Of a DNA stretch of 64,000 nt, positions 871-59,250 are shown in pieces. The DNA is from an uncultured Bdellovibrionales bacterium. Lineage in GTDB: Bacteria > Bdellovibrionota > UBA1018 > CAIPTA01. Positions within the stretch are counted from its first letter, which is position 1; each line of letters begins with the position of its first letter. The position numbers and the translations under genes were made by a program. The stretch is from contig CAZKBU010000001.1 in assembly GCA_964551325.1 (NCBI GenBank), forward strand, positions 385,184 through 449,183, written 5' to 3'. The notes below the pieces were generated by a model. That model worked only from the letters and a program-made list of their open reading frames with translations, had not been told where the DNA came from and searched no databases.

Positions 871-1817
871 TTTCCCGAATTCGCCTTGTGCTCCCCACTT
901 ATAACGATGGCCCATCGCTGGAAGCTCTCTTGAAGAGAATCGATCTGGTAGCGGAAAAAATGAAGAATGAGGAAATTCACGTCACCGTGGTCAACGATGC
1001 ATCCACCGAGACCGTGCAACCCAAAGGCGTGTGGTCGCATCTACGCAGCGTAGAAGTGGTGGACCTCGTAGCAAATTTCGGACATCAACGGGCTCTCGCC
1101 TGCGGAATGGGTTTAGCTGCCACGAGAAATGACTTCGACGCCCTCATTTTAATGGATGGCGACGGCGAGGATCTTCCGGAAGATATTCCGCTTTTGGTTT
1201 CGGCTCATGTTTCGAACCCCCACAAGATTGTGGTCGCCCGCAGGACCAAGCGCTCCGAGGGCCTTAGCTTTCGCCTGAGCTACTTTGTGTACAAGTGGAT
1301 CTTCCGTCTGGCCACGGGGCGAAAAATCAACTTCGGAAATTTCATGTTGATTCCCGCCGCCATGGCAGACCAGCTCCTGCATTCCCAGCACACAGGGAGC
1401 CACATCGCCGCGGCCGTGACCCGCCTCCGCACTCCCATTCACTCTGTTGGCGTGGCCCGAGGACACAGAATCGACGGACGCTCTCAGATGAATTACGTCT
1501 CCCTCGTGCTTCACGGGCTCAGCGCCATCAGCGTATTTTCTGAAACCGTTCTTACGCGTGCGCTTCTATTTCTCGGATCGCTCGCCGGACTGGGCGCCTT
1601 AGCGATGCTCGTGGTCGCAGGAATTAGGGCTCTAACGGATCTCGCAGTTCCCGGTTGGGCCACCTACGTTTCCCTGGCCCTTCTCGCCCTGATTTTTCAG
1701 GCCTTAATGGGCGCCCTGTTTCTTACGTTCCTCAGTCTCGCACTTCGGCAAATTCCAGCGTGGATTCCAGCTCTTCACGCAAACGGAGCCATCAAGGGCC
1801 AGCGGCGCCTGAAGTAA
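849..1817 (+). CDS. GT2 family polyprenyl-phosphate glycosyltransferase (GtrB/ArnC/DPM1-like).
   Basis: N-terminal LVLPTYND and a DGDGED (DXD) motif are typical of GT2. The C-terminal pair of TM helices is typical of GtrB/ArnC-like bactoprenol-sugar synthases. The start could be the internal Met at 867. Confidence 0.8.
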   Translation: MPRNFRMISRIRLVLPTYNDGPSLEALLKRIDLVAEKMKNEEIHVTVVNDASTETVQPKGVWSHLRSVEVVDLVANFGHQRALACGMGLAATRNDFDALILMDGDGEDLPEDIPLLVSAHVSNPHKIVVARRTKRSEGLSFRLSYFVYKWIFRLATGRKINFGNFMLIPAAMADQLLHSQHTGSHIAAAVTRLRTPIHSVGVARGHRIDGRSQMNYVSLVLHGLSAISVFSETVLTRALLFLGSLAGLGALAMLVVAGIRALTDLAVPGWATYVSLALLALIFQALMGALFLTFLSLALRQIPAWIPALHANGAIKGQRRLK

Positions 1818-3294
1818 GCCAGTACACCACGTATCCGTTCCACTCTTCCCGCTGGAGCCGGGGCAAACGCTTTCGTTCCACTGTTTCCATGTGGCCGTGA
1901 AGCGGAGTGCCCACACGAGTGATCCAAAATGGGCGCGTACCCACATTCCAAAAATCTGCAATGCGGTGGGGTGCCGTCTTCACCACCTCGTCGAAAACGA
2001 TTCTTTGCGGCATCCGGGCAAACACCTGATGAACCCAGTCGTCGTCGGTGTAGAAATGGGTCGAGCCCTGAAACCAGTCACGGGATTTGATTCTTTGCCA
2101 AAGCTCTTGATGAGGCGGGCGGTTCCAGTCGCCGAAGCTGCGGATGATTTTCATGGGCAGAAGCGCAACCATTGCCGCCAGCACGAGACCGAGCGCCGTC
2201 TTTGCATGAGCCGCCTCCACTTTATCGGCCAATCGTTGCAACGCCATCGCCTGGAGAAAAATCAGAAAGAGATAAGTGGAGCCGATGTAACGATCATCAA
2301 GAGGAGTTACGGCGAACATCAGTGTTAATAGATAAATCACGGAGAAATGCCCAAGTAGCCCGGCCACCGCAAACCAAGGCTTTACGCGCCCCCCAATTAG
2401 AGGCCACAGCGAGAAAGCGGAAACGGCGGCAAGAAACCAAACACTACCCAAACCCCAGCGTTGGAGCGTGTGTTCAAACGGTGTCCACAACCGATCCCAC
2501 AGAAAAAACGTGGGCTGATAGTGCCCGGCGTTTTTTCCAGTCATCAGTCGGTTTCGAATCATCCACAGAATTACCGGCGCGATTCCCACGAATCCCGTGA
2601 GCACGAGCCGTAGCCCGGCGCCGATCCAGCCACGCTCCTTCGCGAATTTCCACAAAGGGAAAAGAAAAAACACCGCATTGGCCAATCCGTTCCATCGAAC
2701 CGAGGACACAAGAAAAAGAAGGATCCATGCCGTCCACGCGTCTCTGCGGTTCCAGCCGCGATCCCGCAGGTCGAAACATTTGATAAACACCCCCAACGAA
2801 AGCGCGGTGAACAGCGTTTCCGTGAGCAAGGAAGGGAACATGTAGACGTAGGTGGGAAACACACACAAAAAAAGCAGCACCCCAAGACGAACCAGCGCAC
2901 TCAGGCCAAGCCGAAGCCCCGCCTCCCGCACCATCCAACAGAACAGAATGATCGCTACCGATTGGGCCACCATGGCGCTCGCCATCGAATCGCGAATAAA
3001 AAAGTAAAATGCGGCCAAATAAAGGGCGAATCCTGGGGGATAGATCGCATAGATCTCCCGCTCCGGCAGGTAGGAATAGGAAGGCCAGTTAGTCCAGATA
3101 AAGAGCGTACCGTGATCCACGAGATTCATCGCGGCGGTGAGATATTGGGCCGAATCCGGAGAGATAATGAAAATGTCTACCCAGCGCGATACGAGAAATG
3201 CGCAACCCAGCCCGAATCCCGCGAGCTCCAGAAATTTTTCGTGGCGCTGGAACCACTCCACCAGCCTCTGCCAGCGAACCGCGTAGGAATTCAT
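1792..3294 (-). CDS. GT-C superfamily glycosyltransferase (ArnT/PMT-like, GT39/GT83 family), a 500 aa polytopic membrane protein.
   Basis: About 11 TM helices with the N-terminal loop pattern of ArnT/PMT-family lipid-linked sugar transferases. It lies next to the GT2 polyprenyl-P-sugar synthase. Confidence 0.7.
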   Translation of the reverse strand: MNSYAVRWQRLVEWFQRHEKFLELAGFGLGCAFLVSRWVDIFIISPDSAQYLTAAMNLVDHGTLFIWTNWPSYSYLPEREIYAIYPPGFALYLAAFYFFIRDSMASAMVAQSVAIILFCWMVREAGLRLGLSALVRLGVLLFLCVFPTYVYMFPSLLTETLFTALSLGVFIKCFDLRDRGWNRRDAWTAWILLFLVSSVRWNGLANAVFFLFPLWKFAKERGWIGAGLRLVLTGFVGIAPVILWMIRNRLMTGKNAGHYQPTFFLWDRLWTPFEHTLQRWGLGSVWFLAAVSAFSLWPLIGGRVKPWFAVAGLLGHFSVIYLLTLMFAVTPLDDRYIGSTYLFLIFLQAMALQRLADKVEAAHAKTALGLVLAAMVALLPMKIIRSFGDWNRPPHQELWQRIKSRDWFQGSTHFYTDDDWVHQVFARMPQRIVFDEVVKTAPHRIADFWNVGTRPFWITRVGTPLHGHMETVERKRLPRLQREEWNGYVVYWLTSGAAGP

Positions 3295-6382: not shown

Positions 6383-8434
6383 TTAGGCGGAAATTTTTCC
6401 GGTCTTTACTTGGCCGGATAGTTCGAAAAAGAAAAGGTCTCGGGTGCCCACATCGCGCACCGAGGCCTTTTCTCTTTTAAGAAGCTCAAATCTTCCCTTG
6501 GCCCCAAAGACGAGTTTCTCTTCCAGCACAAGCACAGATTTTGACTTCTCGCAGAGAGCCTTTTCACATTCCAAAATTCGCGCCACATCTTTAAACCCGG
6601 TTTCTCCCGGCGCATCTTCAAAATCCTCGAAGCGCTTTCCAGAAACGGTTTTATAGATGGGATGAATGCCGCCCGCTACGAGGGCTGCCCGAAAATGAAT
6701 GGGCGCGCCGGATTCCTTTTCAAATTCCACGCCCATCTTTTCCATCGCCTGGAGCGCATCGAGCGCCTTAGTCAACACCTGCGCCGACTCACCGGGGAAA
6801 AATCCAAAAAACGAATCACCGCCACTCGAAATGTGCTCACCGCCATGGGCCTTCATCACCCCGGTGGCCGCCTCACACCAGCGAGTGGGAAGTTTTGTGG
6901 CGAGGCCTTTTTCGGCGCTCACATCATAGAGCCTGCTCGAAGCTTTCAAATCCACATGAAGCAAAATTCCTTGGAACACGCGCTGCTCTTTAGCCATCGG
7001 ATCGTGAAAGCGGGAGCCCACCAAAGTTTCTTGCACGAAATCGAATTCGCGATAGTCGCGAAAGATAAAGGCGCCCAAGATGGCAACCAGCAAAAACTGC
7101 AGAGGCCGGTGATAAACTGCCTGCAATCCGATCAAACCATTTCCAAGGAGCCCAGTTTGAATCAAATACATTCCGAAAATAAACCCCAACACAACCCCAA
7201 ATTGCACCGTCCGCTTGGCTCGCAATTCCATCTTGCGGTCACCACCCCGACCCAATGCCAGGCGCTTTACAAATTCTGCTTGTGAAAAGCACGCCAGCGC
7301 ACCTACAAAATACATGAAAGGCACAAGCCACTTCGCTAACTGAGCGCTCAGGAAAAAGAAATCGCTCCCCTGTGTGGCCGATCGATAGGCCACCGTGAAG
7401 GCGATGAGCCCCACACCAAAGACCCAATAAACTGTATCTTTCCTCGCTCGGGCATAAGCAAGACCAAGAACCGCACCCAAAACTCCTTCTGAAAACCTGA
7501 GCCCGAGATCCGTGAGGTAGAAATCCGAAATCGACATCGTCCACTTCACCACGCCCCAATGCATGATCTGAATCGCGCACAAGCAAAGCGCAAACAAGCT
7601 AAACGCCAGATACTCCGCCCGATCGGGTACGCTCGCCCACAAAAACAAGAACACTGCGAAAACCACCAGACCCGTGATCCCAAAGGCCAAGGGCCGCGCA
7701 ATCGTGGTGGTCACCCACAAGTTTCTAAAATCCTTCGCACCCTGCTGAGAAAACACTCCAGTGGGATAGGGCGCACCCACCGCCAGCGGCCACGCGGATC
7801 CCAAAGTATGCGTAACCTCCACCGCCACGAGCACACCGCTCGCGCGAGCCCAGTCGGCAGGAGTCAAAGCAAAAGAAACAGGAAGGAAATCATTCCCGTC
7901 ACCAGAACGGCGAATGTCCCCGTTCACGTAAATCCGATAGGTCGCATTGATGTGACCCACCACCACGTCCCAGGCCTCGCCACCAAACGGTCCGCGCCAG
8001 CGCGATCCGTCGAGCCAATAGCCCGCCCAGAAGCGTGTGCCCTGGGCGGCACGGGCGCGCATTGTGAAATCCTTATCCGCCAACGAAGCCTTGGCCGTTC
8101 GCAGCGGCGAACTCACGGGTGAAGCGTAACAACTCGCGCCACCGCCACACTCCGGTCCGCCATCCCAAACCACCATCCAATCGGCGCGGGGGATCTCCAA
8201 AGCCGGCCGCGACGCGAATGCCTCTTCAAAAAACTTTTTGATCGGCGCGGTGAATCCGAGCGCGATCACCGCCACTAAAAAAAACAGCATGGCAAAATCC
8301 ACCATGCGGCCGCGGCGCACGTATTCCCGCCAGTCCACGCCCTTGGGCCGAGCCAATAGCTCACCGATTCGATAGAGGGGCTCGCGTACAAATCGAAAGA
8401 AATTCATGCCTCTTCTCATCGGAATTCCGAGCAT
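6383..8434 (-). CDS. 7TM-DISM receptor fused to a class III adenylate/guanylate cyclase domain.
   Basis: N-terminal TM helix, an extracellular domain of about 200 aa, a 7-TM block, then a C-terminal cyclase-like domain (HVD..., GGDSF, RAALVAGG). The ORF-track start at 8647 would overlap the nitroreductase gene, so a Met near 8434/8419/8407 is the more likely start. Confidence 0.7.
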   Translation of the reverse strand: MLGIPMRRGMNFFRFVREPLYRIGELLARPKGVDWREYVRRGRMVDFAMLFFLVAVIALGFTAPIKKFFEEAFASRPALEIPRADWMVVWDGGPECGGGASCYASPVSSPLRTAKASLADKDFTMRARAAQGTRFWAGYWLDGSRWRGPFGGEAWDVVVGHINATYRIYVNGDIRRSGDGNDFLPVSFALTPADWARASGVLVAVEVTHTLGSAWPLAVGAPYPTGVFSQQGAKDFRNLWVTTTIARPLAFGITGLVVFAVFLFLWASVPDRAEYLAFSLFALCLCAIQIMHWGVVKWTMSISDFYLTDLGLRFSEGVLGAVLGLAYARARKDTVYWVFGVGLIAFTVAYRSATQGSDFFFLSAQLAKWLVPFMYFVGALACFSQAEFVKRLALGRGGDRKMELRAKRTVQFGVVLGFIFGMYLIQTGLLGNGLIGLQAVYHRPLQFLLVAILGAFIFRDYREFDFVQETLVGSRFHDPMAKEQRVFQGILLHVDLKASSRLYDVSAEKGLATKLPTRWCEAATGVMKAHGGEHISSGGDSFFGFFPGESAQVLTKALDALQAMEKMGVEFEKESGAPIHFRAALVAGGIHPIYKTVSGKRFEDFEDAPGETGFKDVARILECEKALCEKSKSVLVLEEKLVFGAKGRFELLKREKASVRDVGTRDLFFFELSGQVKTGKISA

Positions 8435-8517
8435 CCGACTCAAATCTTGCCTCAATTCTTTCCGAAGAAACCCGACTGATCTACACGGGTCCGTGACCCT
8501 CGTGGTATAAACGCGCC

Positions 8518-9111
8518 ATGGCCGCCGACCAACGCTCGATTTACGACCTGATTCGCTCCCGTCGCAGCATCCGCAGCTACGTGCAGGGAAAGCCCATTCC
8601 CCCGGAAATGCTCGATCGCGTGCTCGAAGCGGGTCTCTGGGCCGCATCGGGTAAGAATCAGCAGAACTGGCGATTCTTTGTTCTCTCCGGCCGGAAGAGA
8701 GACGAATACCTCTCCCTCTCCCAGAAGAGCTGGCTCTCGATCAAAGACAATCTCGAAAAACGCCTCAAGCCGAGTCTCTACAAATTCACGGAGCGTTTCT
8801 TTTTCACCATGGGCGATGCACCGGTGGTGGTCATTGCGTTCGCCGATCTCAACGATCAGGACCATCCGCAAACCCAGATGGGGAATGTGTATCTCGCCGT
8901 GGACAACATGGTGCTCGCCGCTCAAAGCGAGGGCCTCGGGAGTTGCATTCTTGGAAGTCCGCTGGAGATCGAGAGCGACGTGCGCAAGTTCCTCGGCGTC
9001 ACCCAGCGGAACTGGAAGCTGATCTGCGGACTCACGGTCGGCTGGCCGAACCATGAGCCACCGACGCCTAGCCGACAGACAGAAGGCCGGATCATTCGCC
9101 TCGCGGACTAA
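8518..9111 (+). CDS. Nitroreductase family protein.
   Basis: RSIRSY motif, 197 aa, typical NfsB/NfnB-like fold signature. Confidence 0.8.
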   Translation: MAADQRSIYDLIRSRRSIRSYVQGKPIPPEMLDRVLEAGLWAASGKNQQNWRFFVLSGRKRDEYLSLSQKSWLSIKDNLEKRLKPSLYKFTERFFFTMGDAPVVVIAFADLNDQDHPQTQMGNVYLAVDNMVLAAQSEGLGSCILGSPLEIESDVRKFLGVTQRNWKLICGLTVGWPNHEPPTPSRQTEGRIIRLAD

Positions 9112-10828: not shown

Positions 10829-11752
10829 ATGGAACAACCGCACGAGACCCTCGGAAATTATATCAAGAGTGAACGCGTTAAGCGGAGCATCTCCCTAGAG
10901 CAGATCTCCTACGCCACTCGCATCAGTATGAAGATGCTCAGAGCCCTGGAAGACGATGACCATGGCTCGCTTCCGGCGCCCGCCTTCGTGCGCGGATACC
11001 TCCAGGCCTACGCCAAGTATGTGAGCGTGGACCCTCAGGATCTCATGCTGCGCTACCAGCATCACCTGGCCACAGCTTCCAACGTGAAGCGTTCCGCGCT
11101 TCGGTCGCACTACCTGTATGTAAAAGAACGCTACCAAGAAAAACGGCAGCTGCTTTTGATCGTTTCGCTCGTGGGGGCCTTGATCGTCAGCGCCGGAACT
11201 TATTTTGTGCTGAAGGGAAAACGCGAACGCCGCAAGGCCGCCGCTCAAGTGGCCGCGCTCACGCCGGCTCCCACGCCAGGTGATGCTGTATCTACCCCGG
11301 TGGTGGCGCCCCCCGCCGTGAAAGCAGAGGCCACCAAACCCGTGGAAACCAAGACCGACGGGAAGGCCGAAGTGAAGACCGAGACCAAACAGGCCACGCC
11401 ACCAGCCCCCACTCCCGCTGCGGAGCCCGACAACACCCCCAAGACCTACAATCTTTCACTCACCGCCACCGAAGACGTTTGGCTGCGCTTTCAGGCCGAC
11501 ACAGGTGAAATCAAAGACTTGATGCTTCGCAAGGAAAAGACCATCTGGGTTCGAGCCCATAAGGTTATCAAGATCTTCTCCGGCAACCTGGGCGCCATTA
11601 AGGCCAACTTCAATGGCCAAGAAATGAAGAGCCTGATGACCGCCGATCGCAGCAAAAGCGTTGTGCTGCCTAGCAGCGAAGCCGCCAACCACCCGCTTCC
11701 GCTCTTTCCCCCACAAGCGCACGATCCCAAGCCAGAAGAAAAGAAGGACTAA
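10829..11752 (+). CDS. rodZ: RodZ-like cytoskeleton protein (HTH-XRE domain, TM, Pro/Thr-rich linker, DUF4115).
   Basis: N-terminal HTH (ISLEQISYATRIS), a single TM, a P/T/A-rich spacer and a C-terminal DUF4115-like domain (LRFQADTGEIKDLMLRKEKTIWVRA). Confidence 0.65.
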   Translation: MEQPHETLGNYIKSERVKRSISLEQISYATRISMKMLRALEDDDHGSLPAPAFVRGYLQAYAKYVSVDPQDLMLRYQHHLATASNVKRSALRSHYLYVKERYQEKRQLLLIVSLVGALIVSAGTYFVLKGKRERRKAAAQVAALTPAPTPGDAVSTPVVAPPAVKAEATKPVETKTDGKAEVKTETKQATPPAPTPAAEPDNTPKTYNLSLTATEDVWLRFQADTGEIKDLMLRKEKTIWVRAHKVIKIFSGNLGAIKANFNGQEMKSLMTADRSKSVVLPSSEAANHPLPLFPPQAHDPKPEEKKD

Positions 11753-11840
11753 CGGCGCGGCGCGCATGCCCCCCCCCAAAGGGCCCTAACTTTTTCTTAC
11801 ACGCCATCAAGACGGCTTGACACCCATTTCTTACACACAG

Positions 11841-11972
11841 TTATCCACATCTTGTAAGAACTTATCCACACCGCTAACACGCTGAAATCATTGGGGAAAT
11901 ATTTTCTGCGGCGCGCTTGTCCACACTGACCTCCGCAAGTGCCAGGCTTATCCACAAATCCCGTTGATCCAC
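11841..11972 (+). promoter_or_regulatory. DnaA-box cluster: three perfect TTATCCACA boxes, two near-perfect boxes, and TTCTTACA repeats.
   Basis: Perfect TTATCCACA at 11841-11849, 11862-11870 and 11948-11956. TTGTCCACA at 11917-11925 and TTGATCCAC at 11964-11972. All are in the 350-bp convergent intergenic region between rodZ and the LptF/G gene. Confidence 0.5.
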
Positions 11973-12106
11973 GAGCGGTATTTACACGGCATTGTCAAAG
12001 ATTTGTCAGGATTCTTGTTTACCCAGAAGCCCCTGGAACGGCGGCCTTTCCGAGGAATTTAAACTTGGTCGATTTATAAACCAGCCCCAATGATCAGCTC
12101 AGACCC

Positions 12107-13297
12107 CTACCGCGACACTCTTCGCAGCATCACCACGCCCACCACAAGCAAAAGCACATTTGCAGCCCACATCGCCAGTGGCGGCGAGACTTTCCCGGCG
12201 TCGGCCATGGAGTACCCGGCCTGAAACAAGCCCCAGTAGCCCAGCAACACGAGTAAACAAATGAGGAACGAGTTGGATCGCACCGAACGAGTCTTCACCA
12301 CGCCAAACGCCACGCCGAGAATGGCAAATAGAACGCACGCCACAGACAGGACGATTCTCTTCCAGTATTCGATTCGATAGTCCTGCAGTTCTTTCGACTC
12401 CCACGCCACCAACCCATCTTTAGTCGCCTGCTTTTCTTGATGACGCTTGATCCCCTCCACGAGAGCATTCATGTCCATCGTCTTCGGCTGCTCCACTCCG
12501 ACTACCTTAGCCGTCTCGATCGGCAGGAAGATGTCGAACTGGGAAAATTCCGTCATCTCATACACTCCGGTACCCTGATTGCCCCTATGGAGAGCGCCGT
12601 CGAAGAGGCGCATCACGAGGCCTGGGATACCACGGGTGTCCTGGAAGTTAGGAAGTATGCGCCCAGTCTTGGCCACAACCGTAACAGGCGGAGACTCCTT
12701 ACTGCGCTCGTCGTATATCAACACGCGCTCCATCGAGCTGTCCTTGGAGTTGACCTTGTCGGCATACAACACGAGATCAAAAAAACCTTCCGTGAAAGTT
12801 CCCTCGTGAATCGTGGCGATCGCCTTCGTGTTGGAAATCCGAAAGAGTTCGTAACGAAAGCTTCGCGACCCGAACGGCACGAAATAGGCGTTGGCCGCCA
12901 TGTTCACCACCATCACCACCACACCGAGCAAAAGCACGGGCACCAGGAGCGAGTTCACCGACATCCCGGCCGCTCGCATCGCCATCACCTCCGCATCGGC
13001 CGACAGCCGCCCAAATCCAAGCAACACCGCCAGGAGGAACGCGATCGGAATAATCACCGGCACAAATGTGAGCGAGAGATACCCCATCAGCGACAGGATC
13101 GAGAAGCCACTTACGTTGTGAATCACGAAGAAGTCCGCCAAACGGACAACCTGGAACATCAAAAGCACGAACAAAAAGAACGCGGCCGCCCCCAGGAAGG
13201 GCCGCGAAACCTCAGACACTATATAGCGATAGATCGTCCACGGGATGGGACGTCCAATCCATTTCGGCAACAATGCTTTAAGCCCTTTAGTAGGCAT
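12107..13297 (-). CDS. LPS export ABC transporter permease, LptF/LptG (YjgP/YjgQ) family.
   Basis: 396 aa. N-terminal TM triplet, a periplasmic beta-jellyroll region and C-terminal TM helices. The IYRYI motif is present. Confidence 0.8.
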   Translation of the reverse strand: MPTKGLKALLPKWIGRPIPWTIYRYIVSEVSRPFLGAAAFFLFVLLMFQVVRLADFFVIHNVSGFSILSLMGYLSLTFVPVIIPIAFLLAVLLGFGRLSADAEVMAMRAAGMSVNSLLVPVLLLGVVVMVVNMAANAYFVPFGSRSFRYELFRISNTKAIATIHEGTFTEGFFDLVLYADKVNSKDSSMERVLIYDERSKESPPVTVVAKTGRILPNFQDTRGIPGLVMRLFDGALHRGNQGTGVYEMTEFSQFDIFLPIETAKVVGVEQPKTMDMNALVEGIKRHQEKQATKDGLVAWESKELQDYRIEYWKRIVLSVACVLFAILGVAFGVVKTRSVRSNSFLICLLVLLGYWGLFQAGYSMADAGKVSPPLAMWAANVLLLVVGVVMLRRVSR

Positions 13298-18153: not shown

Positions 18154-18175
18154 GACAAAGGCTTAGGCCTTTGTC
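18154..18175. terminator. Hairpin GACAAAGGC-ttag-GCCTTTGTC that overlaps the stop codon of the convergent hypothetical gene.
   Basis: A 9-bp perfect stem read from the sequence. It lies between convergent trmL and the 429 aa hypothetical gene, and is flanked by A/T-rich runs. Confidence 0.4.
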
Positions 18176-19452
18176 TTAGTTGAAAATTCCATCAAATCAT
18201 CCAGCGCTTTCTTTAGAATGTCTTTACCAGAACTTTTGTGTTGCTCAAAGAAAGAGAAAATTTTCTCCGGGGGCACATTTTCAACTCTTCCCAGCCAGTC
18301 GATTACGCCAAAAAATCTCACGGCGGAGGATGTTTTAAACTCGTTAAAAAGTCTTGCAAATAATTCCAGACGCTCTAAGACGGTTCGGTCGGTAAGAGTT
18401 GCCGAACCAAATTCAAATTGCTCCAAGCCCTCATCGTCTACAGGACGATAGACATGGTAGACAAAGACATTTCGTCCCGATTCAATGGCTTCAAGTAGGC
18501 GCGCCTGAACCCACGGAGCGGAAAACTCAAAGCATGACAATACAGCATCAGCAGCGGCTATGAGTTCACCATTTAAGAGTCTATCGACCCTCTTCGCAGA
18601 AACTTTGCTACCAATGAGGAGAACCACTGGACCCCTGGCGGGAACAGACAGTCGCTTCTTGTATAGATCCAACACAAATTTTTCCACCGCTTCTGCTTCG
18701 CTCAACGAGCTTTTGTTCAGGGGATTTTTGGGCAAAGACTCTAAGAGTTCTCTTTCAATCTGCGCGAATTCTTGTGGCTTAACATTCCGGATAGTTTCGA
18801 AAAGCGCATTTATCTCGGCGCTTGACTCACGCTTCAGCGTGAATATTAGCTCCGAAAGTTCATCCTCAATTTTTTTGATTTCCTTCTTCTTTTCTTCACC
18901 TGAAATTGAGCTCGATTTGATTTGCTCAACCAACATGGCGCGATCTTTTTGGAACGACTTAATCAGAATATTGAGTTTTAATCGGTTCTCAGGAGCCAGC
19001 CTCGTTTCAATTCGTTCGCCTCGCCTTGCCGCATCTAAGTCTTCATTCATGAGATCCAAAATAGTCCCCTCTATTGTGAGACGCGGCTGCTCTATGGTGG
19101 GGTCAGAAGCAGATCGTGACTGCCCCTTTGCATTCTTTCTCAGAACCCCCACGCATGAACGACAAATATGGCCATCTTTCTCAGTTCGCACGCCTCCACA
19201 AGTGGGGCACGGGCCCAAACCGCCGACTGGGCTTTTTCCCGTCATTCTATCAAAAACAGCTCTAATTTCTGGTGTAAGCTCAGGTGAAGCGCCTTTCTTC
19301 TTTTTCAGACGCCTTACAAAGATCGTCCCAGCAAAAAATATAATTGCGCCTAAAAATGACCAGTTAGGTGCATGATCCCAGTCAACAACAAGACCTCCTA
19401 TTGCTCCGAATAGAGTTGCACCTAAAATTGCTACGCTCAGGGGGGATCTCAT
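18163..19452 (-). CDS. Hypothetical membrane-anchored protein with two N-terminal TM helices, a zinc ribbon (CPTCG...CRSC), a coiled coil and an uncharacterised C-terminal alpha/beta domain.
   Basis: Read from the translation. No recognisable catalytic motifs. Confidence 0.5.
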   Translation of the reverse strand: MRSPLSVAILGATLFGAIGGLVVDWDHAPNWSFLGAIIFFAGTIFVRRLKKKKGASPELTPEIRAVFDRMTGKSPVGGLGPCPTCGGVRTEKDGHICRSCVGVLRKNAKGQSRSASDPTIEQPRLTIEGTILDLMNEDLDAARRGERIETRLAPENRLKLNILIKSFQKDRAMLVEQIKSSSISGEEKKKEIKKIEDELSELIFTLKRESSAEINALFETIRNVKPQEFAQIERELLESLPKNPLNKSSLSEAEAVEKFVLDLYKKRLSVPARGPVVLLIGSKVSAKRVDRLLNGELIAAADAVLSCFEFSAPWVQARLLEAIESGRNVFVYHVYRPVDDEGLEQFEFGSATLTDRTVLERLELFARLFNEFKTSSAVRFFGVIDWLGRVENVPPEKIFSFFEQHKSSGKDILKKALDDLMEFSTKTKA

Positions 19453-33813: not shown

Positions 33814-35811
33814 TTACATCTTCGGTGCGCCCGACTCTCCCGGCTCAAGAATCTGTGGGGTCACAAATACCATTAGCTCGTTCTTTAACCACGTATCACG
33901 CTTAACGTTAAAGAGCGGCCCCAAAAAAGGAAGATCCTTAAGGAGAGGAACGCCATCATCTTCGTTTGACTGTTCAAAGCGGTAAACCCCACCCAGAACA
34001 AGAGTCGATCCGCTCTCCACCAGAACCTGTGTCTCTATCTTTTTCTCTGCAATGTCTCGAGCCTGGTTGGGGCTGGAGTTGGAGATATCAAGGTCCATCA
34101 GGACCGCCCCACTGTTTGTAACTTGTGGGGTTACACCCAGCTTCACACCGGCAACCACTTGCTTGATCTCCGTGCCTCCATTTGTCGTGGAAACAACAAA
34201 GTTGAGCGTAGTTCCGTCAATTACCTGTGCCTTTTGTTTGTTATTCACAACAAGCCGAGGCGATGCCACCGTCTTCGAAAGCCCGCTGGTCTCACCCAGC
34301 TGCAATCGAAGATTTAAATTTCCATGCTGACCGGCACCAAGTTGAAAACCGACACCCATCCCCTCAGACCGCGACGACACCACGAATCCTGCCGGCGCCC
34401 CGGCGCCAAGCGTAGTTGAGGCTCCGTTTACTGCTGCGCCAATTCCCTGCCTTCCGCTGCTGCGATTAGACGCCTTACCGGACCACTGAACACCAAGATC
34501 CTTGGCCCAGCCTTCCTCGGCAACCACAATTTTTGAATCGATCAACACCTGAGGAAGCGGAACATCCAACTCCTTCACAAGGCGGCGTATGCGCTCAACC
34601 GCTTCTTTTGTGTTGGTGACAACGAGAGAGTTCGAACGCTCATCGACTTCGATTTTTCCTCGCACGAACGAGGGCTTAATCTTAACCTCTTGGTCATCCT
34701 CTTTCTGAAGCTCCACGGATATTTTTCCCAGGTCAGCTTTTTGCCCAACCGCCTCAGCCTTCGCAATTCGATTCTGAATTTCCGCCACCTGTCTGTCGAG
34801 ATCGAGCTTTTCTCTCTCCTTTTTGACACGCTCGTCTTCGCCCTTGTTTTCTTTTTCCTCATATTTGTAGAGCAGTTTATCAATCATCGTCTGGAGGTCT
34901 TTTGCTTTTGCAAAACTAACCGGAATGATCGCCATAATTGTTGGCTCCAGCTCATCGGAAAGCACTTTTTTCTGCACGATCTTCACCAGCTTGGAACGAC
35001 GCTCCTCCTCCCGCTTCCGGTACTCCTCTCCTGTTACAATATGAATAACGTTCCCAACCGCATCCGCACGCAAGCGGTGCTGCTGCAACACGATGTCGAG
35101 CAGCTGGTCCCATGGAACATCCTTCAATGAAACCGAGATAGTGCCGCTGATTTCCGTAGAGGTGACAATATTCAGTCCACTGGTCTCGCCTACGAGCTTG
35201 AAGATACTGTGGATGTCGGCGTCTTTTGCCTCAAAGCTCACCCGTGAACCCTTATAGGTGCGTTTATCCACTTCGGTATCAAGCGTTTCAACAAGCTGCT
35301 TAGCCACCTTAGTGCTCTCACTGTAGGTCGGAGCGGCGTCTTTGGTTGAAATCTCGTCTCCAATCATCACCACATCACGAGACTTCTTGGCGGAAGGTTT
35401 TGCTGCTACTGCGGGAACACCAGTTGGCTTCACTGCTGCCAGACTAAGAATGAATCTCCCGCTTGCATTTCTATGCACAACCGAAGTTTTTCCGCGAAGC
35501 TGGATTACAAGCTTAACTTTGGGGTCCTTGGTTCCTGCATTGTATGGCGTAACCTGAACCACCGGAGACTCCGCCGATGAGGAGTCAATCGTCCGAGTAA
35601 GGCGCGCTGGCAGCTGAATCCCTGAAGCCTCTACCACCACCTGATCAAAATCTTTTAACTCACGCACCTGGAACGCTGCCGAAGACTGGTGATTGAGCTC
35701 AATGGTGGCCACACCTCCCGACGCAGTCATTTTCAGATCTTTTGCCAGCACTGTCGCGCTCGCATCCACCGACATCAAAGCTAAAAGCAAAAGTACCATT
35801 CGCTTGCCCAT
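33814..35811 (-). CDS. pilQ: Type IV pilus secretin PilQ.
   Basis: Signal peptide, AMIN-like N-terminus and secretin C-terminal signature (VLGGVYRF...VPLLKDLPFLGPLF...ELMVFVTP). Confidence 0.9.
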   Translation of the reverse strand: MGKRMVLLLLALMSVDASATVLAKDLKMTASGGVATIELNHQSSAAFQVRELKDFDQVVVEASGIQLPARLTRTIDSSSAESPVVQVTPYNAGTKDPKVKLVIQLRGKTSVVHRNASGRFILSLAAVKPTGVPAVAAKPSAKKSRDVVMIGDEISTKDAAPTYSESTKVAKQLVETLDTEVDKRTYKGSRVSFEAKDADIHSIFKLVGETSGLNIVTSTEISGTISVSLKDVPWDQLLDIVLQQHRLRADAVGNVIHIVTGEEYRKREEERRSKLVKIVQKKVLSDELEPTIMAIIPVSFAKAKDLQTMIDKLLYKYEEKENKGEDERVKKEREKLDLDRQVAEIQNRIAKAEAVGQKADLGKISVELQKEDDQEVKIKPSFVRGKIEVDERSNSLVVTNTKEAVERIRRLVKELDVPLPQVLIDSKIVVAEEGWAKDLGVQWSGKASNRSSGRQGIGAAVNGASTTLGAGAPAGFVVSSRSEGMGVGFQLGAGQHGNLNLRLQLGETSGLSKTVASPRLVVNNKQKAQVIDGTTLNFVVSTTNGGTEIKQVVAGVKLGVTPQVTNSGAVLMDLDISNSSPNQARDIAEKKIETQVLVESGSTLVLGGVYRFEQSNEDDGVPLLKDLPFLGPLFNVKRDTWLKNELMVFVTPQILEPGESGAPKM

Positions 35812-36326
35812 TACCTGCCTCCTGCTGCCTGCGTGCCACCCACTGGCAACACCACGGTGGTGTGATCCACCACCCCTGTCCTAGACCGGGTCTTTTGAAC
35901 CACAGTCACCCCAACTTGTTCGATCTTTGCGATGATTCCACCACGGTTTCCCAATCGGTCATTTTCTCGGACGATCATGACTCGCCCTGCATTATCGGGA
36001 ATCCGCACCAATGCCCGATTGTAAACATCACCCAACAACACCGCCTGAACCTTGTAGTCTTTAATCTCATAGCGCTCGAGATCCGTTTGCTGACGAGTGC
36101 CGCCCTCTGTGTCTTGGCTGCGCCACGAATCAATAATGGACTGATACGGCGGAGCTGGCCTGTTAAATGGATCTTTCCGAGAAAGCACCCCGGGCACCGT
36201 AGACAGTTGCTGGAGAAACTGTTCAATGGTGAGGTCCGCGGGACGCTTCTCATCCGAAGGGGCCTCAGCGCTCAAGACGCCAGAGGGAATCACTAAAAAT
36301 GCCAACAGGATAAAGCCCCGAATCAC
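35811..36326 (-). CDS. pilP: Type IV pilus assembly protein PilP.
   Basis: Position in pilMNOPQ. Signal peptide/lipoprotein-like N-terminus and a RKDPF motif. Confidence 0.75.
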   Translation of the reverse strand: MIRGFILLAFLVIPSGVLSAEAPSDEKRPADLTIEQFLQQLSTVPGVLSRKDPFNRPAPPYQSIIDSWRSQDTEGGTRQQTDLERYEIKDYKVQAVLLGDVYNRALVRIPDNAGRVMIVRENDRLGNRGGIIAKIEQVGVTVVQKTRSRTGVVDHTTVVLPVGGTQAAGGR

Positions 36327-36970
36327 TTTGGCGCCCCCCCCATGTAGCGATATGTAACAACGCGGAGACTCGATCGAATTCCTGGATACGCCTGCTTTCC
36401 GCCACCCATCTTGCTCGAAGCAAACGCGCCGTCTTCACCACCCAGGGTTACGGAGGCGCGCTCTGAGTCACGATTCACGGTAAAGCTGGATACATCCACC
36501 AGGCGCTTCATGTTTGCCATGCGATCAAGGAAAATGAAGATCTGGAGGAAAGTTCCTCGAATTTCCAAATTGAAGCCCAATGACGCGTACAGATCCTGCG
36601 GAGTTTCTTTTTGGTCGGGCTTAATTTCTACGATTTCGAGCTCCAGCTGTTTTGCCTCGCGCAAAAGATCGGAGAGCAAATCAGGAAGATAAAACTGCTT
36701 TGGCAGAGCTCCCTGCACTGCCTGGAGTTGCTTTACTTTGTCCTGATATTTTTTCTTTCTCGACTCGAATTCCTTTTCGAAATTCTTTGCCTCTTGAACT
36801 TTTTCCTGCAGCTTCACCACTTCTTTTTCCTGCTGCGAAATACCGTTTTCCAGATTTTCGATCTGGGAGACGTCAAGGGTGAAGTAGCAGTATGCCGCGT
36901 AAACCACCAAGATCGCGCCGGCGGTATTCCAGTTAAGCTTTTGGAGCAGTGGCAACAGCTTCTGAAACAT
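36323..36970 (-). CDS. pilO: Type IV pilus assembly protein PilO.
   Basis: Single N-terminal TM plus a coiled coil and the PilO fold pattern. Operon position. Confidence 0.75.
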   Translation of the reverse strand: MFQKLLPLLQKLNWNTAGAILVVYAAYCYFTLDVSQIENLENGISQQEKEVVKLQEKVQEAKNFEKEFESRKKKYQDKVKQLQAVQGALPKQFYLPDLLSDLLREAKQLELEIVEIKPDQKETPQDLYASLGFNLEIRGTFLQIFIFLDRMANMKRLVDVSSFTVNRDSERASVTLGGEDGAFASSKMGGGKQAYPGIRSSLRVVTYRYMGGAPK

Positions 36971-36972
36971 GA

Positions 36973-37725
36973 CTAACCACTCCCTCCCGGTGCAGCTGGC
37001 TTAGCGGCTGTGGGCTTTGTGGGCTCCGCGGCAGGTGCCGAAGGCGCAGAAGTTGTCGGGGCCGTAGCGGCCGGCGTCTGCGACACGTTGTTCACCATGA
37101 ATTCTAATTGAAACGATTTGGTCTTTTGGTCTGCGACCGGTATTCCGGCAATCGGCCGATCCTTGGTGGCGTCGGCTTTGATACCCCTCAACGTGACTGC
37201 GCTGAATCGCGTGTTCTCAGAGAGCGCCCGCACGAAATCATTTACCGTGAAATACTCCCATGCGGCACCATCGACCGTGAAAACTCTGTCTTTGTATTTC
37301 AAAACCTCTACCCAGGCGTTGGTGGGCATCAACTCTAGTACGGAGTTCAGAGATCGAAATGCCAGATCACGATTCAGAGAAAGGGCCTGAATCGTGGTTA
37401 ATTGTTTATCAACTTCCGCCTCTTCTTTTTGTAGGGCCTCCATCTTCTGGCGCACACCCTTTAAATTCCCGAGCTCCTTTCGGAAGGTTTCAGCGCGGGC
37501 CGAAACCTCGTTGAGGCGCGCCTGAAGCTCCTCCACTTTCATCTCAAGCCAATAATCTGGTACCGCACCGATGACGTACATACCCACGAGTAACACAGCG
37601 AGAATTTTCCCGGTTGGGCGCAACTCTTCCAGCTGTCCCGAGGTGATGCCTGCTTTTTCAAGCAGTTTGTCGAGTCCAAACGGTACCTGCTTTTTCTTTT
37701 TTCCAAGGAGGTTGACCCTTAACAT
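36973..37725 (-). CDS. pilN: Type IV pilus assembly protein PilN.
   Basis: MLRVNLLG start (AGGAGG Shine-Dalgarno sequence upstream), a single TM, and an extended Pro/Ala/Thr-rich C-terminal tail. Confidence 0.8.
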   Translation of the reverse strand: MLRVNLLGKKKKQVPFGLDKLLEKAGITSGQLEELRPTGKILAVLLVGMYVIGAVPDYWLEMKVEELQARLNEVSARAETFRKELGNLKGVRQKMEALQKEEAEVDKQLTTIQALSLNRDLAFRSLNSVLELMPTNAWVEVLKYKDRVFTVDGAAWEYFTVNDFVRALSENTRFSAVTLRGIKADATKDRPIAGIPVADQKTKSFQLEFMVNNVSQTPAATAPTTSAPSAPAAEPTKPTAAKPAAPGGSG

Positions 37726-37729
37726 CGGC

Positions 37730-38785
37730 TCATTCCTCCTGCCCGCGAAACGCGAGCCCCATGGGAACAACGGCCGAAGCCGATATCGCGGCCATCAACT
37801 CTTCTGAAAATGCTCCGTCGGCAACTTCCACCCGATTGAAGGGATTCAGATAGTCCACGGGCAAGCCCAACATTTCCTGAAGAATCGTCAGCAAGTTGGG
37901 GATTCGGCTCGAACCGCCGCAAATATAGATGGAAGCAATAGGAAGCTGCGTGGGCGACGCCGCGTAGAAGTCGAGGCTTCGACGCACTTCCACGGCGATG
38001 TTTTCAGTAACGGTTGCAAAAACCTCCGCCACTTCGTCGGGGATCTGGCCCGACGCTGCCGCATCCACTTTCATGGCCTCCGCGTCGGAGAAACCGACGC
38101 CCACCTTGTTTTGAATCTCTTGGGTGAGGTTCTTGCCGCCAACAGCAACATCACGAGTGAAAAGCGAGCTCTTTGCGTCCACAATGTTGATCTTTGTTAG
38201 ACTGGCCCCCACATCCACCAGCACCACGCTGCTATCCGGTGGAACGTCGTAGTTCAGCCAAAACACATTGGCCATGGCGAAAACGTCCACATCAAGGACT
38301 TCCGGCTGAATCCCTGCGTCTCGAAGCGTTCCAAGGCGCTTTTCAATAAAATCTTTTTTAGCAGCCACGAGCAGGATATCCATTTTCCCGTCGCCGTTGT
38401 CTTCCCTCACCACTTCAAAATCGAGGCTAATTTCAGCCATCGGAAACGGAATGTACTGCTCAGCTTCCCAGTAGACCTGGTCTTCCAGCTCTGTTGGCTT
38501 TGTGATCGGAATGTTGATGTGTTTGATGATTACGGAGGCGCCAGAAACAGAGGTGGCGGCCAATTTTGCCTTGGTTCCGCTCTCTTTAACTACGGTCTTA
38601 ATCGCTTCCACGATGGCGCCATGGTTCACCACCTCGCCGTCCACGATCGTGTCTTCCGGAAGTGGGGCCACGGCAAAGCGCTTCACAACCCAACCGTTGC
38701 GCTTTCCTTCAGCTTCCACCAACTTTACGGAACTCGACCCGATGTCAATGCCGACAAGAGGCTTAGCTCCCAGCCCAAAAAGCAT
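37730..38785 (-). CDS. pilM: Type IV pilus assembly ATPase-like protein PilM (actin-like).
   Basis: GIDIGSSSVKLV phosphate-1 motif. Length is 351 aa. Confidence 0.9.
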   Translation of the reverse strand: MLFGLGAKPLVGIDIGSSSVKLVEAEGKRNGWVVKRFAVAPLPEDTIVDGEVVNHGAIVEAIKTVVKESGTKAKLAATSVSGASVIIKHINIPITKPTELEDQVYWEAEQYIPFPMAEISLDFEVVREDNGDGKMDILLVAAKKDFIEKRLGTLRDAGIQPEVLDVDVFAMANVFWLNYDVPPDSSVVLVDVGASLTKINIVDAKSSLFTRDVAVGGKNLTQEIQNKVGVGFSDAEAMKVDAAASGQIPDEVAEVFATVTENIAVEVRRSLDFYAASPTQLPIASIYICGGSSRIPNLLTILQEMLGLPVDYLNPFNRVEVADGAFSEELMAAISASAVVPMGLAFRGQEE

Positions 38786-45520: not shown

Positions 45521-45554
45521 GAGGGGGGCCTCGAAAGGGGTCCCTCTTTTTTTT
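45521..45554 (+). terminator. Rho-independent terminator (GC-rich hairpin plus a T8 run) after small peptide gene 2.
   Basis: GAGGGGGGCCTCGAAAGGGGTCCCTC followed by TTTTTTTT. Confidence 0.5.
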
Positions 45555-47463: not shown

Positions 47464-47868
47464 AAGTGGTGGTGGAACTGTAAGCCGGATTCTGTACCTG
47501 GTTTCCCAGGCGACAATCATTCCTCTAGGCCACCCGTTACCGTGTGGCTCCAGCGATACTACCCGCACACTTTGGGCGAGCAGCCCTCAGTCGTGTGCCT
47601 ATTTGATCTTGCTCCTAGCGGGGTTTACCGAGCCGCACGAATTACTTCGCACGCTGGTGGTCTCTTACACCACCGTTTCACCCTTACCTGATCCCCGTGA
47701 GGGGCCATCGGCGGTTTGCTCTCTGTTGCACTTTCCGTAACCGGAAACGAACTCACGTGTAATTCGTTTTCAATCCCTGGCCGTTAGCCAGCGCCACGCT
47801 CTATGGAGTCCGGACTTTCCTCCCCCCGGTCGAGCCGGGCGGCGATTGTCCATTCCACCACCAGGTGT
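47464..47868 (-). ncRNA. rnpB: RNase P RNA (bacterial type A).
   Basis: The reverse complement contains GGAGGAAAGUCCGGACUCC, AGUGCAACAGAGAGCAAACCGCCGAUGGCC and GGGGAUCAGGUAAGGGUGAAACGGUGG. P1 is formed by GGUGGUGGAA/UUCCACCACC, followed by a U7 run. Confidence 0.85.
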
Positions 47869-53990: not shown

Positions 53991-54347
53991 TCAATTTCTC
54001 TGATTCAATATTCCACGGATACCACTGGCCGCCCTTACGAGAAGTTCCTGACCTCTTCGCGTAACACTAAGAATTTTCTTTCGGGCATCCCTCGGATCAT
54101 CTGCTACGAAAATTGCTTCTTTTCGCTGTAGCCGCTTGAAGCTTTGAGTGAGGGTGCTCGGATGCATTCCCAGTGTATCGGCGAGCTGCTGTGGCGAGCA
54201 CCCCGGCATGTCCCGAAGCGCAACCAAAAGATGGTACTGCACCAGGCTTAGTCCGAAGCCAGCCTCAGCATCTTTATTTAAACAATGAAACTCCAAATTT
54301 TCCCGCACCAAACGGGACACTTCAATTTCCAACGTTTTGTTTTCCAT
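53991..54347 (-). CDS. MarR family transcriptional regulator.
   Basis: 118 aa winged-HTH protein (LSLVQYHLLVAL...). Confidence 0.8.
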   Translation of the reverse strand: MENKTLEIEVSRLVRENLEFHCLNKDAEAGFGLSLVQYHLLVALRDMPGCSPQQLADTLGMHPSTLTQSFKRLQRKEAIFVADDPRDARKKILSVTRRGQELLVRAASGIRGILNQRN

Positions 54348-57350: not shown

Positions 57351-57372
57351 AGTACTGTATTCTCATTTTACT

Positions 57373-57384
57373 TTGATATCAAAT
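57373..57384. promoter_or_regulatory. Perfect palindrome TTTGATATCAAA in the 51-bp divergent otsA / GH15 promoter region. Candidate operator.
   Basis: Read from the sequence. Resembles TTTGATTTCAAA upstream of peptide gene 2. Confidence 0.35.
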
Positions 57385-57401
57385 TAAAGTACGATTTTTG
57401 G

Positions 57402-59171: not shown

Positions 59172-59250
59172 GCGTCGCTTTCGCCCCCGCATAACTGCTC
59201 AGCGTCCATCGGACGCCGCCACCGCCCCTGCGAATCCCGAATTGAGAGCC

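What the first reader, a model, noticed from the sequence alone, without database searches (positions are those of the whole stretch)
11790..11972. Cluster of three perfect plus two near-perfect DnaA boxes in a convergent intergenic region
Perfect high-affinity DnaA boxes (TTATCCACA) lie on the plus strand at 11841-11849, 11862-11870 and 11948-11956. Near-perfect boxes TTGTCCACA (11917-11925) and TTGATCCAC (11964-11972) are also present. Two direct copies of TTTCTTACAC and one inverted copy of TTCTTACA are nearby. The region lies between convergently transcribed rodZ and the LptF/G gene, so it is not an ordinary promoter. Such a density of perfect boxes is expected only at oriC, at DnaA-titration or reactivation sites (datA/DARS-like), or at DnaA box clusters. 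dnaA and dnaN are not in the window, so an origin is possible but unproven.
Basis: partly seen in the sequence, partly recalled or inferred. Interest (0 to 1): 0.55.

Follow-up and report, generated by a model that had tools for sequence, protein, structure and literature searches.

The report
Conserved non-origin DnaA-box and IHF-like module
The DnaA-box cluster is real and is kept, with fixed spacing and an IHF-like site, between rodZ and lptF in at least 16 divergent Bdellovibrionota genomes, but it is not the replication origin and most likely binds and down-regulates the initiator DnaA, as datA does in E. coli.

Summary
Three perfect TTATCCACA boxes (11841, 11862, 11948) and TTGTCCACA (11917) lie on one strand in the 354-bp gap between convergent rodZ and lptF. 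The fifth box is out of register and not conserved.

The window is from an uncultured Bdellovibrionota bacterium. The same module is present wherever rodZ and lptF converge: 16 distinct lineages, with LptF identity down to 31% and G+C from 37 to 58%. It is absent from 11 loci where this gene order is broken.

The boxes always share one orientation. Spacing is A-21-B-55-C in 11 close lineages and A-21/22-B-78-C in 5 distant ones. A 13-nt match to the IHF consensus (YAANNNNTTGATW) starts 13 or 14 nt after the start of box B in every locus.

It is not oriC. GC skew keeps its sign on both sides in the window and in 15 related loci. There is no AT-rich unwinding element and no dnaA or dnaN nearby.

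Best reading: a datA-like site where DnaA and a bending protein assemble, lowering initiator availability, in the path of rodZ transcription. All function is inferred. It is a new member of a known kind, and experiments could test it directly.

The parts
10829..11752 (+). rodZ-like gene (HTH_25 plus RodZ_C). Its transcription runs towards the module.
   Evidence: Pfam. A convergent RodZ-like gene follows lptF in the window and in all 11 loci with at least 1.3 kb of downstream DNA that carry the module, and in L040-L042.
11794..11801 (+). Accessory motif TTCTTACA, copy 1 (TTCTKACA in relatives).
   Evidence: Conserved column block in the anchored alignment. Absent in L014, L036 and class 2.
11817..11822 (+). 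Conserved TTGACA (gcTTGAC), 18 nt upstream of box A. It looks like a -35 hexamer, but no -10 follows it.
   Evidence: Alignments. The promoter scan found no promoter-like site.
11828..11835 (+). Accessory motif TTCTTACA, copy 2.
11841..11849 (+). DnaA box A (TTATCCACA).
   Evidence: Mean information 1.88 bits across 11 class-1 lineages, against 0.67 for non-box columns.
11853..11860 (-). Inverted copy of the accessory motif (TGTAAGAA on the + strand), filling the gap between boxes A and B.
11862..11870 (+). DnaA box B (TTATCCACA), 21 bp after box A.
   Evidence: The A-B spacing is 21 or 22 bp in all 16 lineages.
11875..11887 (+). IHF-like core TAACACGCTGAAA (YAANNNNTTGATW, 2 mismatches), starting 13 nt after the start of box B.
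   Evidence: 0-3 mismatches at the fixed offset of 13 or 14 nt in 13 of 13 loci (mean 1.38, background 5.5). One search adds L040 and L041. E. coli datA and oriC have their IHF site in the same orientation relative to the boxes.
11917..11925 (+). DnaA box C (TTGTCCACA), 55 bp after box B.
   Evidence: The B-C spacing is 55 bp in all 11 class-1 lineages and 78 bp in all 5 class-2 lineages.
11948..11956 (+). DnaA box D (TTATCCACA), an extra box 31 bp after box C. Only L007 also has it.
11965..11973 (+). TGATCCACG, a doubtful fifth box with 2 mismatches.
   Evidence: Sequence. Not conserved in L007.
12001..12017 (+). Conserved downstream motif ATTTGTCAGGATTCTTG (TTTGTYAGGnTTTCGTCA in relatives). 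No factor is known for it.
   Evidence: Present in class 1 and in L038, L040, L041 and L042.
11753..12106 (.). The whole convergent intergenic region that holds the module.
   Evidence: It is identical in three independent metagenome contigs apart from one length difference in a C run.
12107..13297 (-). lptF (LptF_LptG permease), convergent with rodZ.
   Evidence: Pfam. Homologues.

Best explanation
This is a chromosomal DnaA-assembly site that is not an origin of replication. It works like E. coli datA. Shown: three or four high-affinity DnaA boxes in one orientation sit at spacings fixed over long evolutionary time. A sequence matching the IHF consensus sits directly after box B, in the gap between boxes B and C. 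The module lies between the 3' ends of rodZ and lptF. Inferred: DnaA occupies boxes A, B and C (and D). An IHF- or HU-type protein bends the B-C spacer so that the bound DnaA molecules contact each other head to tail. The complex then removes active initiator from the pool, by titration and/or by stimulating hydrolysis of the ATP bound to DnaA, which restrains re-initiation at oriC elsewhere on the chromosome. Because the module lies in the path of rodZ-operon transcription (in the distant lineages box A starts 2 nt after the rodZ stop codon), read-through transcription probably modulates its occupancy, as tRNA-Gly read-through does at datA.
For: 1. Clustering is far beyond chance.
2. Conservation is deep and tied to position. 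The module is present in all 16 distinct lineages that keep the rodZ-lptF junction, with LptF identity from 84% down to 31% and G+C from 0.37 to 0.58. It is absent from all 11 loci with enough downstream DNA that lack rodZ there.
3. The boxes are the most constrained columns, at 1.65-1.92 bits against 0.67. They always share one orientation. Spacing is invariant within each class: 21 and 55 bp, or 21/22 and 78 bp. Fixed phasing suggests an ordered complex rather than a passive sink.
4. An IHF-consensus match sits at a fixed offset from box B in every locus tested, including class-2 loci whose spacers cannot otherwise be aligned (none of 200,000 random draws reached the observed mean).
5. The parallels with E. 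coli were checked on the real sequences. datA also lies in a convergent gap (glyVXY then queG). Its essential boxes share one direction, and its IHF core TAACCTATTGATA has the same orientation relative to the boxes (PMC5742627). R5M and R1 in oriC, which flank an IHF site, are exactly 55 bp apart.
6. Read-through transcription is known to regulate datA (PMC10950094).
7. The B. bacteriovorus DnaA box is NN(A/T)TCCACA (PMC5124646), so DnaA proteins of this phylum should bind these sites.
Against: There is no binding or functional data of any kind. The IHF match in the window itself has 2 mismatches and would mean nothing without the cross-species conservation. I chose the position to test after seeing which columns were conserved, and the loci are phylogenetically related, so that statistic is inflated. 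No IHF or HU gene was found in the DNA available, so whether the organism has such a protein is untested. The spacings differ from datA, where boxes 2 and 3 are 162 bp apart. Further conserved motifs (TTCTKACA, TTGACA, TGTAAGAA, TTTGTYAGG) are unexplained and may belong to another factor or another function. The distance from oriC is unknown. The direction of the effect (inactivation, titration or reactivation) cannot be read from sequence.
Confidence: 0.55

Rival explanations
1. Local transcriptional device. DnaA, with a bending protein, bound in the rodZ 3' region acts as a roadblock or terminator between the convergent rodZ and lptF operons. Alternatively it controls an unannotated transcript, linking envelope and cell-shape gene expression to the replication state.
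For: In class-2 loci box A starts 2 nt after the rodZ stop codon, so rodZ transcripts must enter the module. L041 has a terminator-like hairpin in the rodZ direction immediately after box C, and by eye L036 and L038 have similar hairpins. A conserved TTGACA lies 18 nt upstream of box A in class 1. DnaA-dependent transcription pausing at the asnC terminator and at datA box 2 is described in PMC10950094.
Against: No sigma-70-like promoter was found in the window, L036, L040 or L041. No -10 hexamer follows the TTGACA, and the TTGACA is lost in L014, L036 and most class-2 loci while the boxes persist. No Rfam family matches, and no consensus RNA structure forms on either strand. No conserved ORF is possible: the B-C spacing of 55 bp is not a multiple of 3, and the called ORFs of the window and of L006 read the boxes in different frames. 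No terminator-like site was found in the window. A roadblock would not need three phased boxes and an IHF-like site conserved at this depth.
Confidence: 0.2
2. DARS-like reactivation site. The cluster assembles ADP-DnaA and promotes nucleotide release, which raises rather than lowers initiation potential.
For: It has a core of three boxes with conserved spacing, like the DARS core. DARS2 also uses IHF (PMC5742627). L036 and L041 each have one additional inverted box next to box C.
Against: [quoted passage not shown] That feature is absent here: boxes A, B and C share one orientation in all 16 lineages. The inverted boxes in L036 and L041 are lineage-specific.
Confidence: 0.1
3. Chromosomal replication origin (oriC), or a secondary or cryptic origin.
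For: High-affinity boxes lie in one orientation with an IHF-like site. The 55-bp spacing is identical to R5M-R1 in the left half of E. coli oriC. A short A/T-rich stretch with TTGT follows box C in several relatives.
Against: GC skew does not change sign at the site in the window, with 11.8 kb on one side and 52 kb on the other, or in 15 related loci. Genes on the + strand and genes on the - strand both show negative skew on both sides. There is no AT-rich unwinding element in the window. The flanking genes converge. No dnaA, dnaN, gyrB or parAB turned up among the 37 ORFs of the window scanned against Pfam. The origins described for Bdellovibrio and its relatives lie between dnaA and dnaN (PMC5124646). 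The orientation of the module relative to the direction of skew differs between classes.
Confidence: 0.03
4. A chance cluster, or a binding array for an unrelated protein that happens to resemble DnaA boxes.
For: Other conserved motifs of unknown function (TTCTTACA, TGTAAGAA, TTTGTYAGG) share the region.
Against: 0 of 100 shuffles give 4 perfect boxes. The exact 9-mer consensus is maintained across genomes from 37% to 58% G+C while the neighbouring sequence decays. The motif equals the near-universal DnaA box and the consensus measured for B. bacteriovorus (PMC5124646).
Confidence: 0.02

Closest known systems
[quoted passage not shown]
   Same: It is a non-coding cluster of DnaA boxes outside oriC. 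The essential boxes share one orientation. An IHF site lies between boxes, in the same orientation relative to them. It sits between convergent transcription units and is exposed to read-through from the upstream unit (PMC5742627, PMC10950094).
   Different: There is no sequence homology or shared gene context (glyVXY-queG there, rodZ-lptF here). The spacings differ: box 2 to box 3 is 162 bp there, against 55 or 78 bp here. Here two strong boxes lie 21 bp apart upstream of the IHF-like core, rather than a weak box 7 beside box 2. The phylum is different. DDAH activity is untested. This module is conserved over much deeper divergence (LptF identity down to 31%).
Left DnaA-oligomerisation region of E. 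coli oriC (R5M - IHF site - R1)
   Same: Boxes in one orientation flank an IHF site. The start-to-start spacing is 55 bp, identical to B-C in the 11 class-1 lineages.
   Different: There is no adjacent unwinding element, no array of low-affinity sites at 11-bp intervals, and no GC-skew switch. Class-2 lineages use 78 bp.
Bacillus subtilis DnaA-box clusters (six DBCs outside oriC) and the Streptomyces DnaA-box clusters
   Same: They are intergenic clusters of strong boxes outside oriC that restrain initiation, apparently by titration (PMC3245932).
   Different: [quoted passage not shown] Here the position, orientation and internal spacing are fixed across a wide radiation, the site lies between two 3' ends, and it includes an IHF-like site.
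E. coli DARS1 and DARS2
   Same: A core of three boxes with conserved spacing. DARS2 uses IHF.
   Different: [quoted passage not shown] All core boxes here point the same way.

Membership tests
oriC (chromosomal replication origin) | Cluster of DnaA boxes | tested here: met
oriC (chromosomal replication origin) | GC skew changes polarity at the site | tested here: not met
   Skew is negative across all 64 kb. It has the same sign on both sides in 15 related loci.
oriC (chromosomal replication origin) | Adjacent AT-rich DNA-unwinding element | tested here: not met
   The lowest G+C in 60-bp windows of the intergenic region is 0.417, in a region of about 0.55 G+C. By eye there are no repeated AT-rich 13-mers or DnaA-trio pattern.
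oriC (chromosomal replication origin) | Origin gene context, dnaA-dnaN, as in characterised Bdellovibrionota | tested here: not met
   No dnaA, dnaN, recF or gyrB among the 37 ORFs scanned against Pfam. The context for Bdellovibrio is given in PMC5124646.
oriC (chromosomal replication origin) | Supports autonomous replication, or shows a marker-frequency peak | not testable with these tools
   Needs an experiment or read-depth data.
datA-type DnaA-inactivating or titrating locus | Several DnaA boxes outside oriC in one orientation with constrained spacing | tested here: met
datA-type DnaA-inactivating or titrating locus | Sequence matching the IHF-binding consensus between the boxes | tested here: met
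   YAANNNNTTGATW at offset 13 or 14 from box B in 13 of 13 loci, with 0-3 mismatches. L040 and L041 have 1 mismatch each. L042 has 2 mismatches, counted by eye. This tests sequence only.
datA-type DnaA-inactivating or titrating locus | IHF actually binds, and the complex stimulates DnaA-ATP hydrolysis | not testable with these tools
   Biochemical assay needed. No IHF or HU gene was found in the DNA held, which says nothing either way.
datA-type DnaA-inactivating or titrating locus | Homology or synteny with E. coli datA | tested here: not met
   Different flanking genes and different spacings. This is an analogue, not a homologue.
DARS-type DnaA-reactivating sequence | [quoted passage not shown] | tested here: not met
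   Boxes A, B and C share one orientation in all lineages. The criterion is from PMC5742627.
Bacillus-type DnaA-box cluster (titration) | Stable DnaA binding in vivo and location close to oriC | not testable with these tools
   The origin is not in the window. From the skew direction, it lies more than 52 kb beyond the right end of the window.
DnaA-regulated promoter | Boxes overlap a recognisable promoter that drives a downstream gene or RNA | tested here: not met
   No promoter-like sites. The flanking genes converge. No Rfam hit and no consensus RNA structure.

The most novel reading that the evidence does not exclude
An ancient control locus for replication initiation, spanning much of the Bdellovibrionota and evolved independently of datA. 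In this reading DnaA and a bending protein form a defined complex inside the 3' end of the rodZ cell-shape operon. Transcription of envelope and cell-shape genes and the availability of active DnaA would then be coupled in both directions. That would offer a possible handle on how Bdellovibrio-like bacteria gate replication during their unusual growth cycles. The unexplained accessory motifs (TTCTKACA, TGTAAGAA, TTTGTYAGG-TTTCGTCA) would be sites for a further lineage-specific regulator of that complex.
Probability: 0.25. Interest if true: 0.7.

Novelty: new member of a known kind. Interest (0 to 1): 0.5.

Why it matters
Control of initiator activity by non-coding chromosomal sites has been worked out mechanistically almost only in E. 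coli (datA, DARS), with titration clusters described in Bacillus and Streptomyces. This would be the first candidate in Bdellovibrionota. Its architecture is conserved far more deeply than that of the known examples: fixed box phasing, a fixed IHF-like site and a fixed genomic address across genomes from 37% to 58% G+C in freshwater, groundwater and marine samples. That makes it a well-defined target about 150 bp long for experiments on DnaA binding, IHF bending, box deletion and ori:ter measurements. It would also allow a test of whether the datA principle evolved more than once. Reviews of Bdellovibrio replication that I searched do not mention datA, DARS, titration or Hda.

Tried and rejected
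- **Reference genomes.** The genome-contig scan with LptF returned only an unrelated Prolixibacteraceae locus. I therefore could not check named reference genomes such as B. bacteriovorus HD100.
- **Known RNA families.** An Rfam search of 11650-12200 at E up to 10 gave only a spurious snoRNA hit.
- **Structured small RNA.** RNAalifold on the region from box C downstream gave 0 pairs on either strand, so this idea was dropped.
- **Promoter.** Sigma-70 promoter scans in the window and three relatives found nothing.
- **Small ORF across the boxes.** Rejected. The ORFs called in the window (11797-11955, - strand) and in L006 read the boxes in different frames. The 55-bp spacing is not a multiple of 3. 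TGTGGATAA gives a stop codon in one frame.
- **IHF consensus in the other orientation.** I first compared the spacer with WATCAANNNNTTR in that orientation and wrongly concluded there was no IHF site (note 3). The complementary orientation fits at a fixed offset.
- **Low-affinity DnaA site between boxes A and B.** TTGTAAGAA matches only 4 of 9 positions and is not conserved in class 2, so this is not supported.
- **IHF or HU genes.** This is uninformative.
- **Taxonomic names.** The listing of cluster members gave no names for the relatives.
- **P0027 contig.** The 603-kb contig shows the same gene order, but its DNA could not be fetched.

Full report
**1. Observation**

Perfect TTATCCACA boxes lie on the + strand at 11841, 11862 and 11948. 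The only other perfect box in the 64 kb is at 62000 on the - strand. That makes four boxes where 0.22 are expected, and none of 100 dinucleotide-preserving shuffles reaches four. TTGTCCACA lies at 11917.

The TTTCTTACAC direct repeat and its inverted copy are real. TTCTTACA occurs only three times in the window, all of them here. The site lies in the 354-bp gap between a RodZ-like gene (10829-11752, +) and lptF (12107-13297, -), which converge.

The fifth box, 'TTGATCCAC', is out of register. Read properly it is TGATCCACG, with two mismatches, and it is not conserved. Three independent metagenome contigs carry an identical intergenic region apart from the length of one C run.

**2. Source organism and window context**

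LptF homologues that carry a name are labelled Bdellovibrionales, Bdellovibrionota or Oligoflexia metagenome-assembled genomes. I scanned 37 ORFs of the window against Pfam, and the hits are ordinary chromosomal genes. They include glycosyltransferases, PilZ, a TPR protein, RodZ, LptF, a sugar transferase, PepA, a class II tRNA synthetase, AccC, EF-P, pilMNQ, SerB, NadA, arginase, otsAB, RuvB and RpoD. BamA and TamB are inferred from the same gene order in relatives. RNase P RNA and three tRNAs are also present. No dnaA, dnaN, gyrB, recF or parAB turned up.

**3. It is not an origin**

- GC skew is negative in almost every 2-kb window across the 64 kb and shows no inflection at 11.8 kb. It averages -0.087 to the left of the site and -0.078 to the right.
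- Stretches dominated by + strand genes and stretches dominated by - strand genes are both negative on both sides, so gene orientation does not explain the result.
- The skew has the same sign on both sides of the module in 15 related loci.
- The lowest G+C in 60-bp windows of the intergenic region is 0.417, so there is no unwinding element.
- The flanking genes converge.
- The origins described for B. bacteriovorus, and predicted for P. exovorus and H. marinus, lie between dnaA and dnaN (PMC5124646).

From the direction of the skew, the origin lies beyond the right end of the window, more than 52 kb away.

**4. Comparative evidence**

I collected related loci through LptF homologues. Wherever lptF is followed by a convergent rodZ-like gene, the intergenic region carries the same module. 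This holds for the window, for the 11 loci with at least 1.3 kb of downstream DNA, and for L040-L042. Shorter contigs show the boxes as well (L008, L013, L033). None of the 11 loci with enough downstream DNA but no rodZ there has it.

There are 16 distinct lineages, which fall into two classes:

| Class | Loci | LptF identity to the window | Spacing |
|---|---|---|---|
| 1 (11 lineages) | window, L006, L007, L008/L021, L009, L011, L012, L013, L014, L033, L036 | 53% or more | A-21-B-55-C in every case. The window and L007 have an extra box D, 31 bp after C. |
| 2 (5 lineages) | L019/L020, L038, L040, L041, L042 | L019/L020 31%, L038 41%; L040-L042 found through L038's LptF (51-54% identity to it) | A-21/22-B-78-C |

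All core boxes point the same way. Genome G+C ranges from 0.37 (L042, a marine TARA sample) to 0.58 (L011).

In an ungapped alignment of the class-1 sequences anchored on box A, the three boxes carry 1.88, 1.65 and 1.92 bits per column. All other columns average 0.67 bits. In L014, L036 and class 2 the accessory motifs are gone, but the boxes and their phasing remain. The boxes are therefore the functional core, and selection has held them for a long time.

**5. An IHF-like site**

The conserved columns after box B (AA-N5-TGAAAT) fit the complement of the E. coli IHF consensus, YAANNNNTTGATW. At offset 13 (class 1) or 14 (class 2) from the start of box B, 13 of 13 loci match with 0-3 mismatches. 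The mean is 1.38, against a background mean of 5.5. Two or fewer mismatches occur at about 0.9% of random positions, and none of 200,000 random draws reached the observed mean. L040 and L041 also match, with one mismatch each. L042 has two mismatches by my own count.

In the window the site is 11875-11887, TAACACGCTGAAA, with two mismatches. There are caveats. The loci are related to each other, and I tested this position after seeing that it was conserved. Against that, the consensus comes from outside this data set, and the class-2 spacers cannot otherwise be aligned with those of class 1.

**6. Comparison with known systems, checked on the E. coli sequence**

- **datA** lies between glyVXY (+) and queG (-), which also converge. 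Box 2 is at position 545, the IHF core TAACCTATTGATA at 610-622 in the same orientation as the boxes, and box 3 at 707. Its essential boxes share one direction (PMC5742627). Read-through transcription from the tRNA operon regulates IHF binding there (PMC10950094).
- **oriC** has R5M and R1 in one orientation, flanking the IHF site, and 55 bp apart start to start. That equals the class-1 B-C spacing.
[quoted passage not shown] That is not the case here.
- **Bacillus DnaA-box clusters** restrain initiation by apparent titration, but their positions differ between species (PMC3245932). Here the position is fixed.

**7. Relation to transcription**

In class 2, box A begins 2 nt after the rodZ stop codon, so rodZ transcripts must enter the module. 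L041 has a terminator-like hairpin in the rodZ direction directly after box C. L036 and L038 have similar hairpins by eye. The window has none.

No promoter-like site was found. There is no Rfam match and no consensus RNA structure. No conserved ORF can span the boxes. I therefore treat transcription as something that modulates the element, or is modulated by it, and not as the product of the element.

**8. Conclusion**

The best-supported mechanism is a datA-like assembly site for DnaA and a bending protein that lowers the availability of active initiator (confidence 0.55). The rivals are:

- a local roadblock or terminator function (0.2);
- DARS-like reactivation (0.1);
- an origin (0.03);
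- chance, or binding by another protein (0.02).

About 0.1 is left unassigned. What is shown: the sequence, its statistics, its conservation, its phasing, the absence of origin features, and the architectural parallels. What is inferred: binding by DnaA and by IHF, and the effect on initiation.

**9. Unexplained**

- The class-1 accessory motifs: TTCTKACA twice in direct orientation 34 bp apart, TTGACA, and the inverted TGTAAGAA that fills the A-B gap.
- A motif downstream of box C found in both classes (window 12001-12017; TTTGTYAGGnTTTCGTCA in relatives).
- The orientation of the module relative to the replication skew, which differs between class 1 and most class-2 loci.

Noticed in passing
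window 54000-59200: G+C drops to 0.46-0.48, against about 0.55 elsewhere. The stretch carries trehalose-phosphatase (54322-55104, -), a trehalose-6-phosphate synthase-like GT20 protein (55101-57350, -) and a GH15 glucoamylase/trehalase-like protein (57402-59171, +). It lies directly beside tRNA-Glu and tRNA-Lys at 59290-59468. This may be a horizontally acquired island at a tRNA locus.
   Followed up: partly
window 62107-62130: A perfect 24-nt palindrome, CTGTATACCGTATACGGTATACAG, lies just downstream of tRNA-Met (62162-62238, -). A GC-rich palindrome, GCGCGCTAGCGCGC, precedes it at about 62147-62160. These may be a terminator plus an operator-like site.
   Followed up: no
window 62000-62008 (- strand): The fourth perfect DnaA box of the window stands alone, between the RuvB region and tRNA-Met. 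It lies inside a short + strand ORF (about 61872-62100) whose product, read by eye, resembles a four-helix-bundle protein. That resemblance was not verified.
   Followed up: no
L036 11225-11245; L041 about 11280-11299: Two relatives each carry one extra inverted DnaA box next to box C: TTATCCACAtatTGTGGAAAA in L036 and TGTGGATAActtTATCCACA in L041. This gives a locally opposed pair of boxes that the other lineages lack.
   Followed up: partly
L039 (E. coli oriC) compared with window 11862-11925: The start-to-start spacing of R5M and R1, which flank the IHF site in E. coli oriC, is 55 bp. That is identical to the B-C spacing in all 11 class-1 lineages. It may be a coincidence, or it may reflect a shared geometric requirement of an IHF-type bend.
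   Followed up: partly
window 1792-3294 (-), 6383-8647 (-), 18163-19452 (-), 45553-47430 (-): Four long ORFs (500, 754, 429 and 625 aa) have no Pfam match at E up to 1e-5.
   Followed up: no
window 33814-38785: A type IV pilus assembly cluster (PilM, PilN and PilQ secretin, with small ORFs between them) lies on the - strand. RNase P RNA is at 47465-47861 (-).
   Followed up: no
L006 (JGI contig Ga0621872_00007, 3,077,765 bp): A relative with the module sits on a 3.08-Mb contig that may be a complete chromosome. The module lies at about 3.035 Mb. That contig could settle the distance from the module to oriC, but only 21 kb of it could be read here.
   Followed up: no
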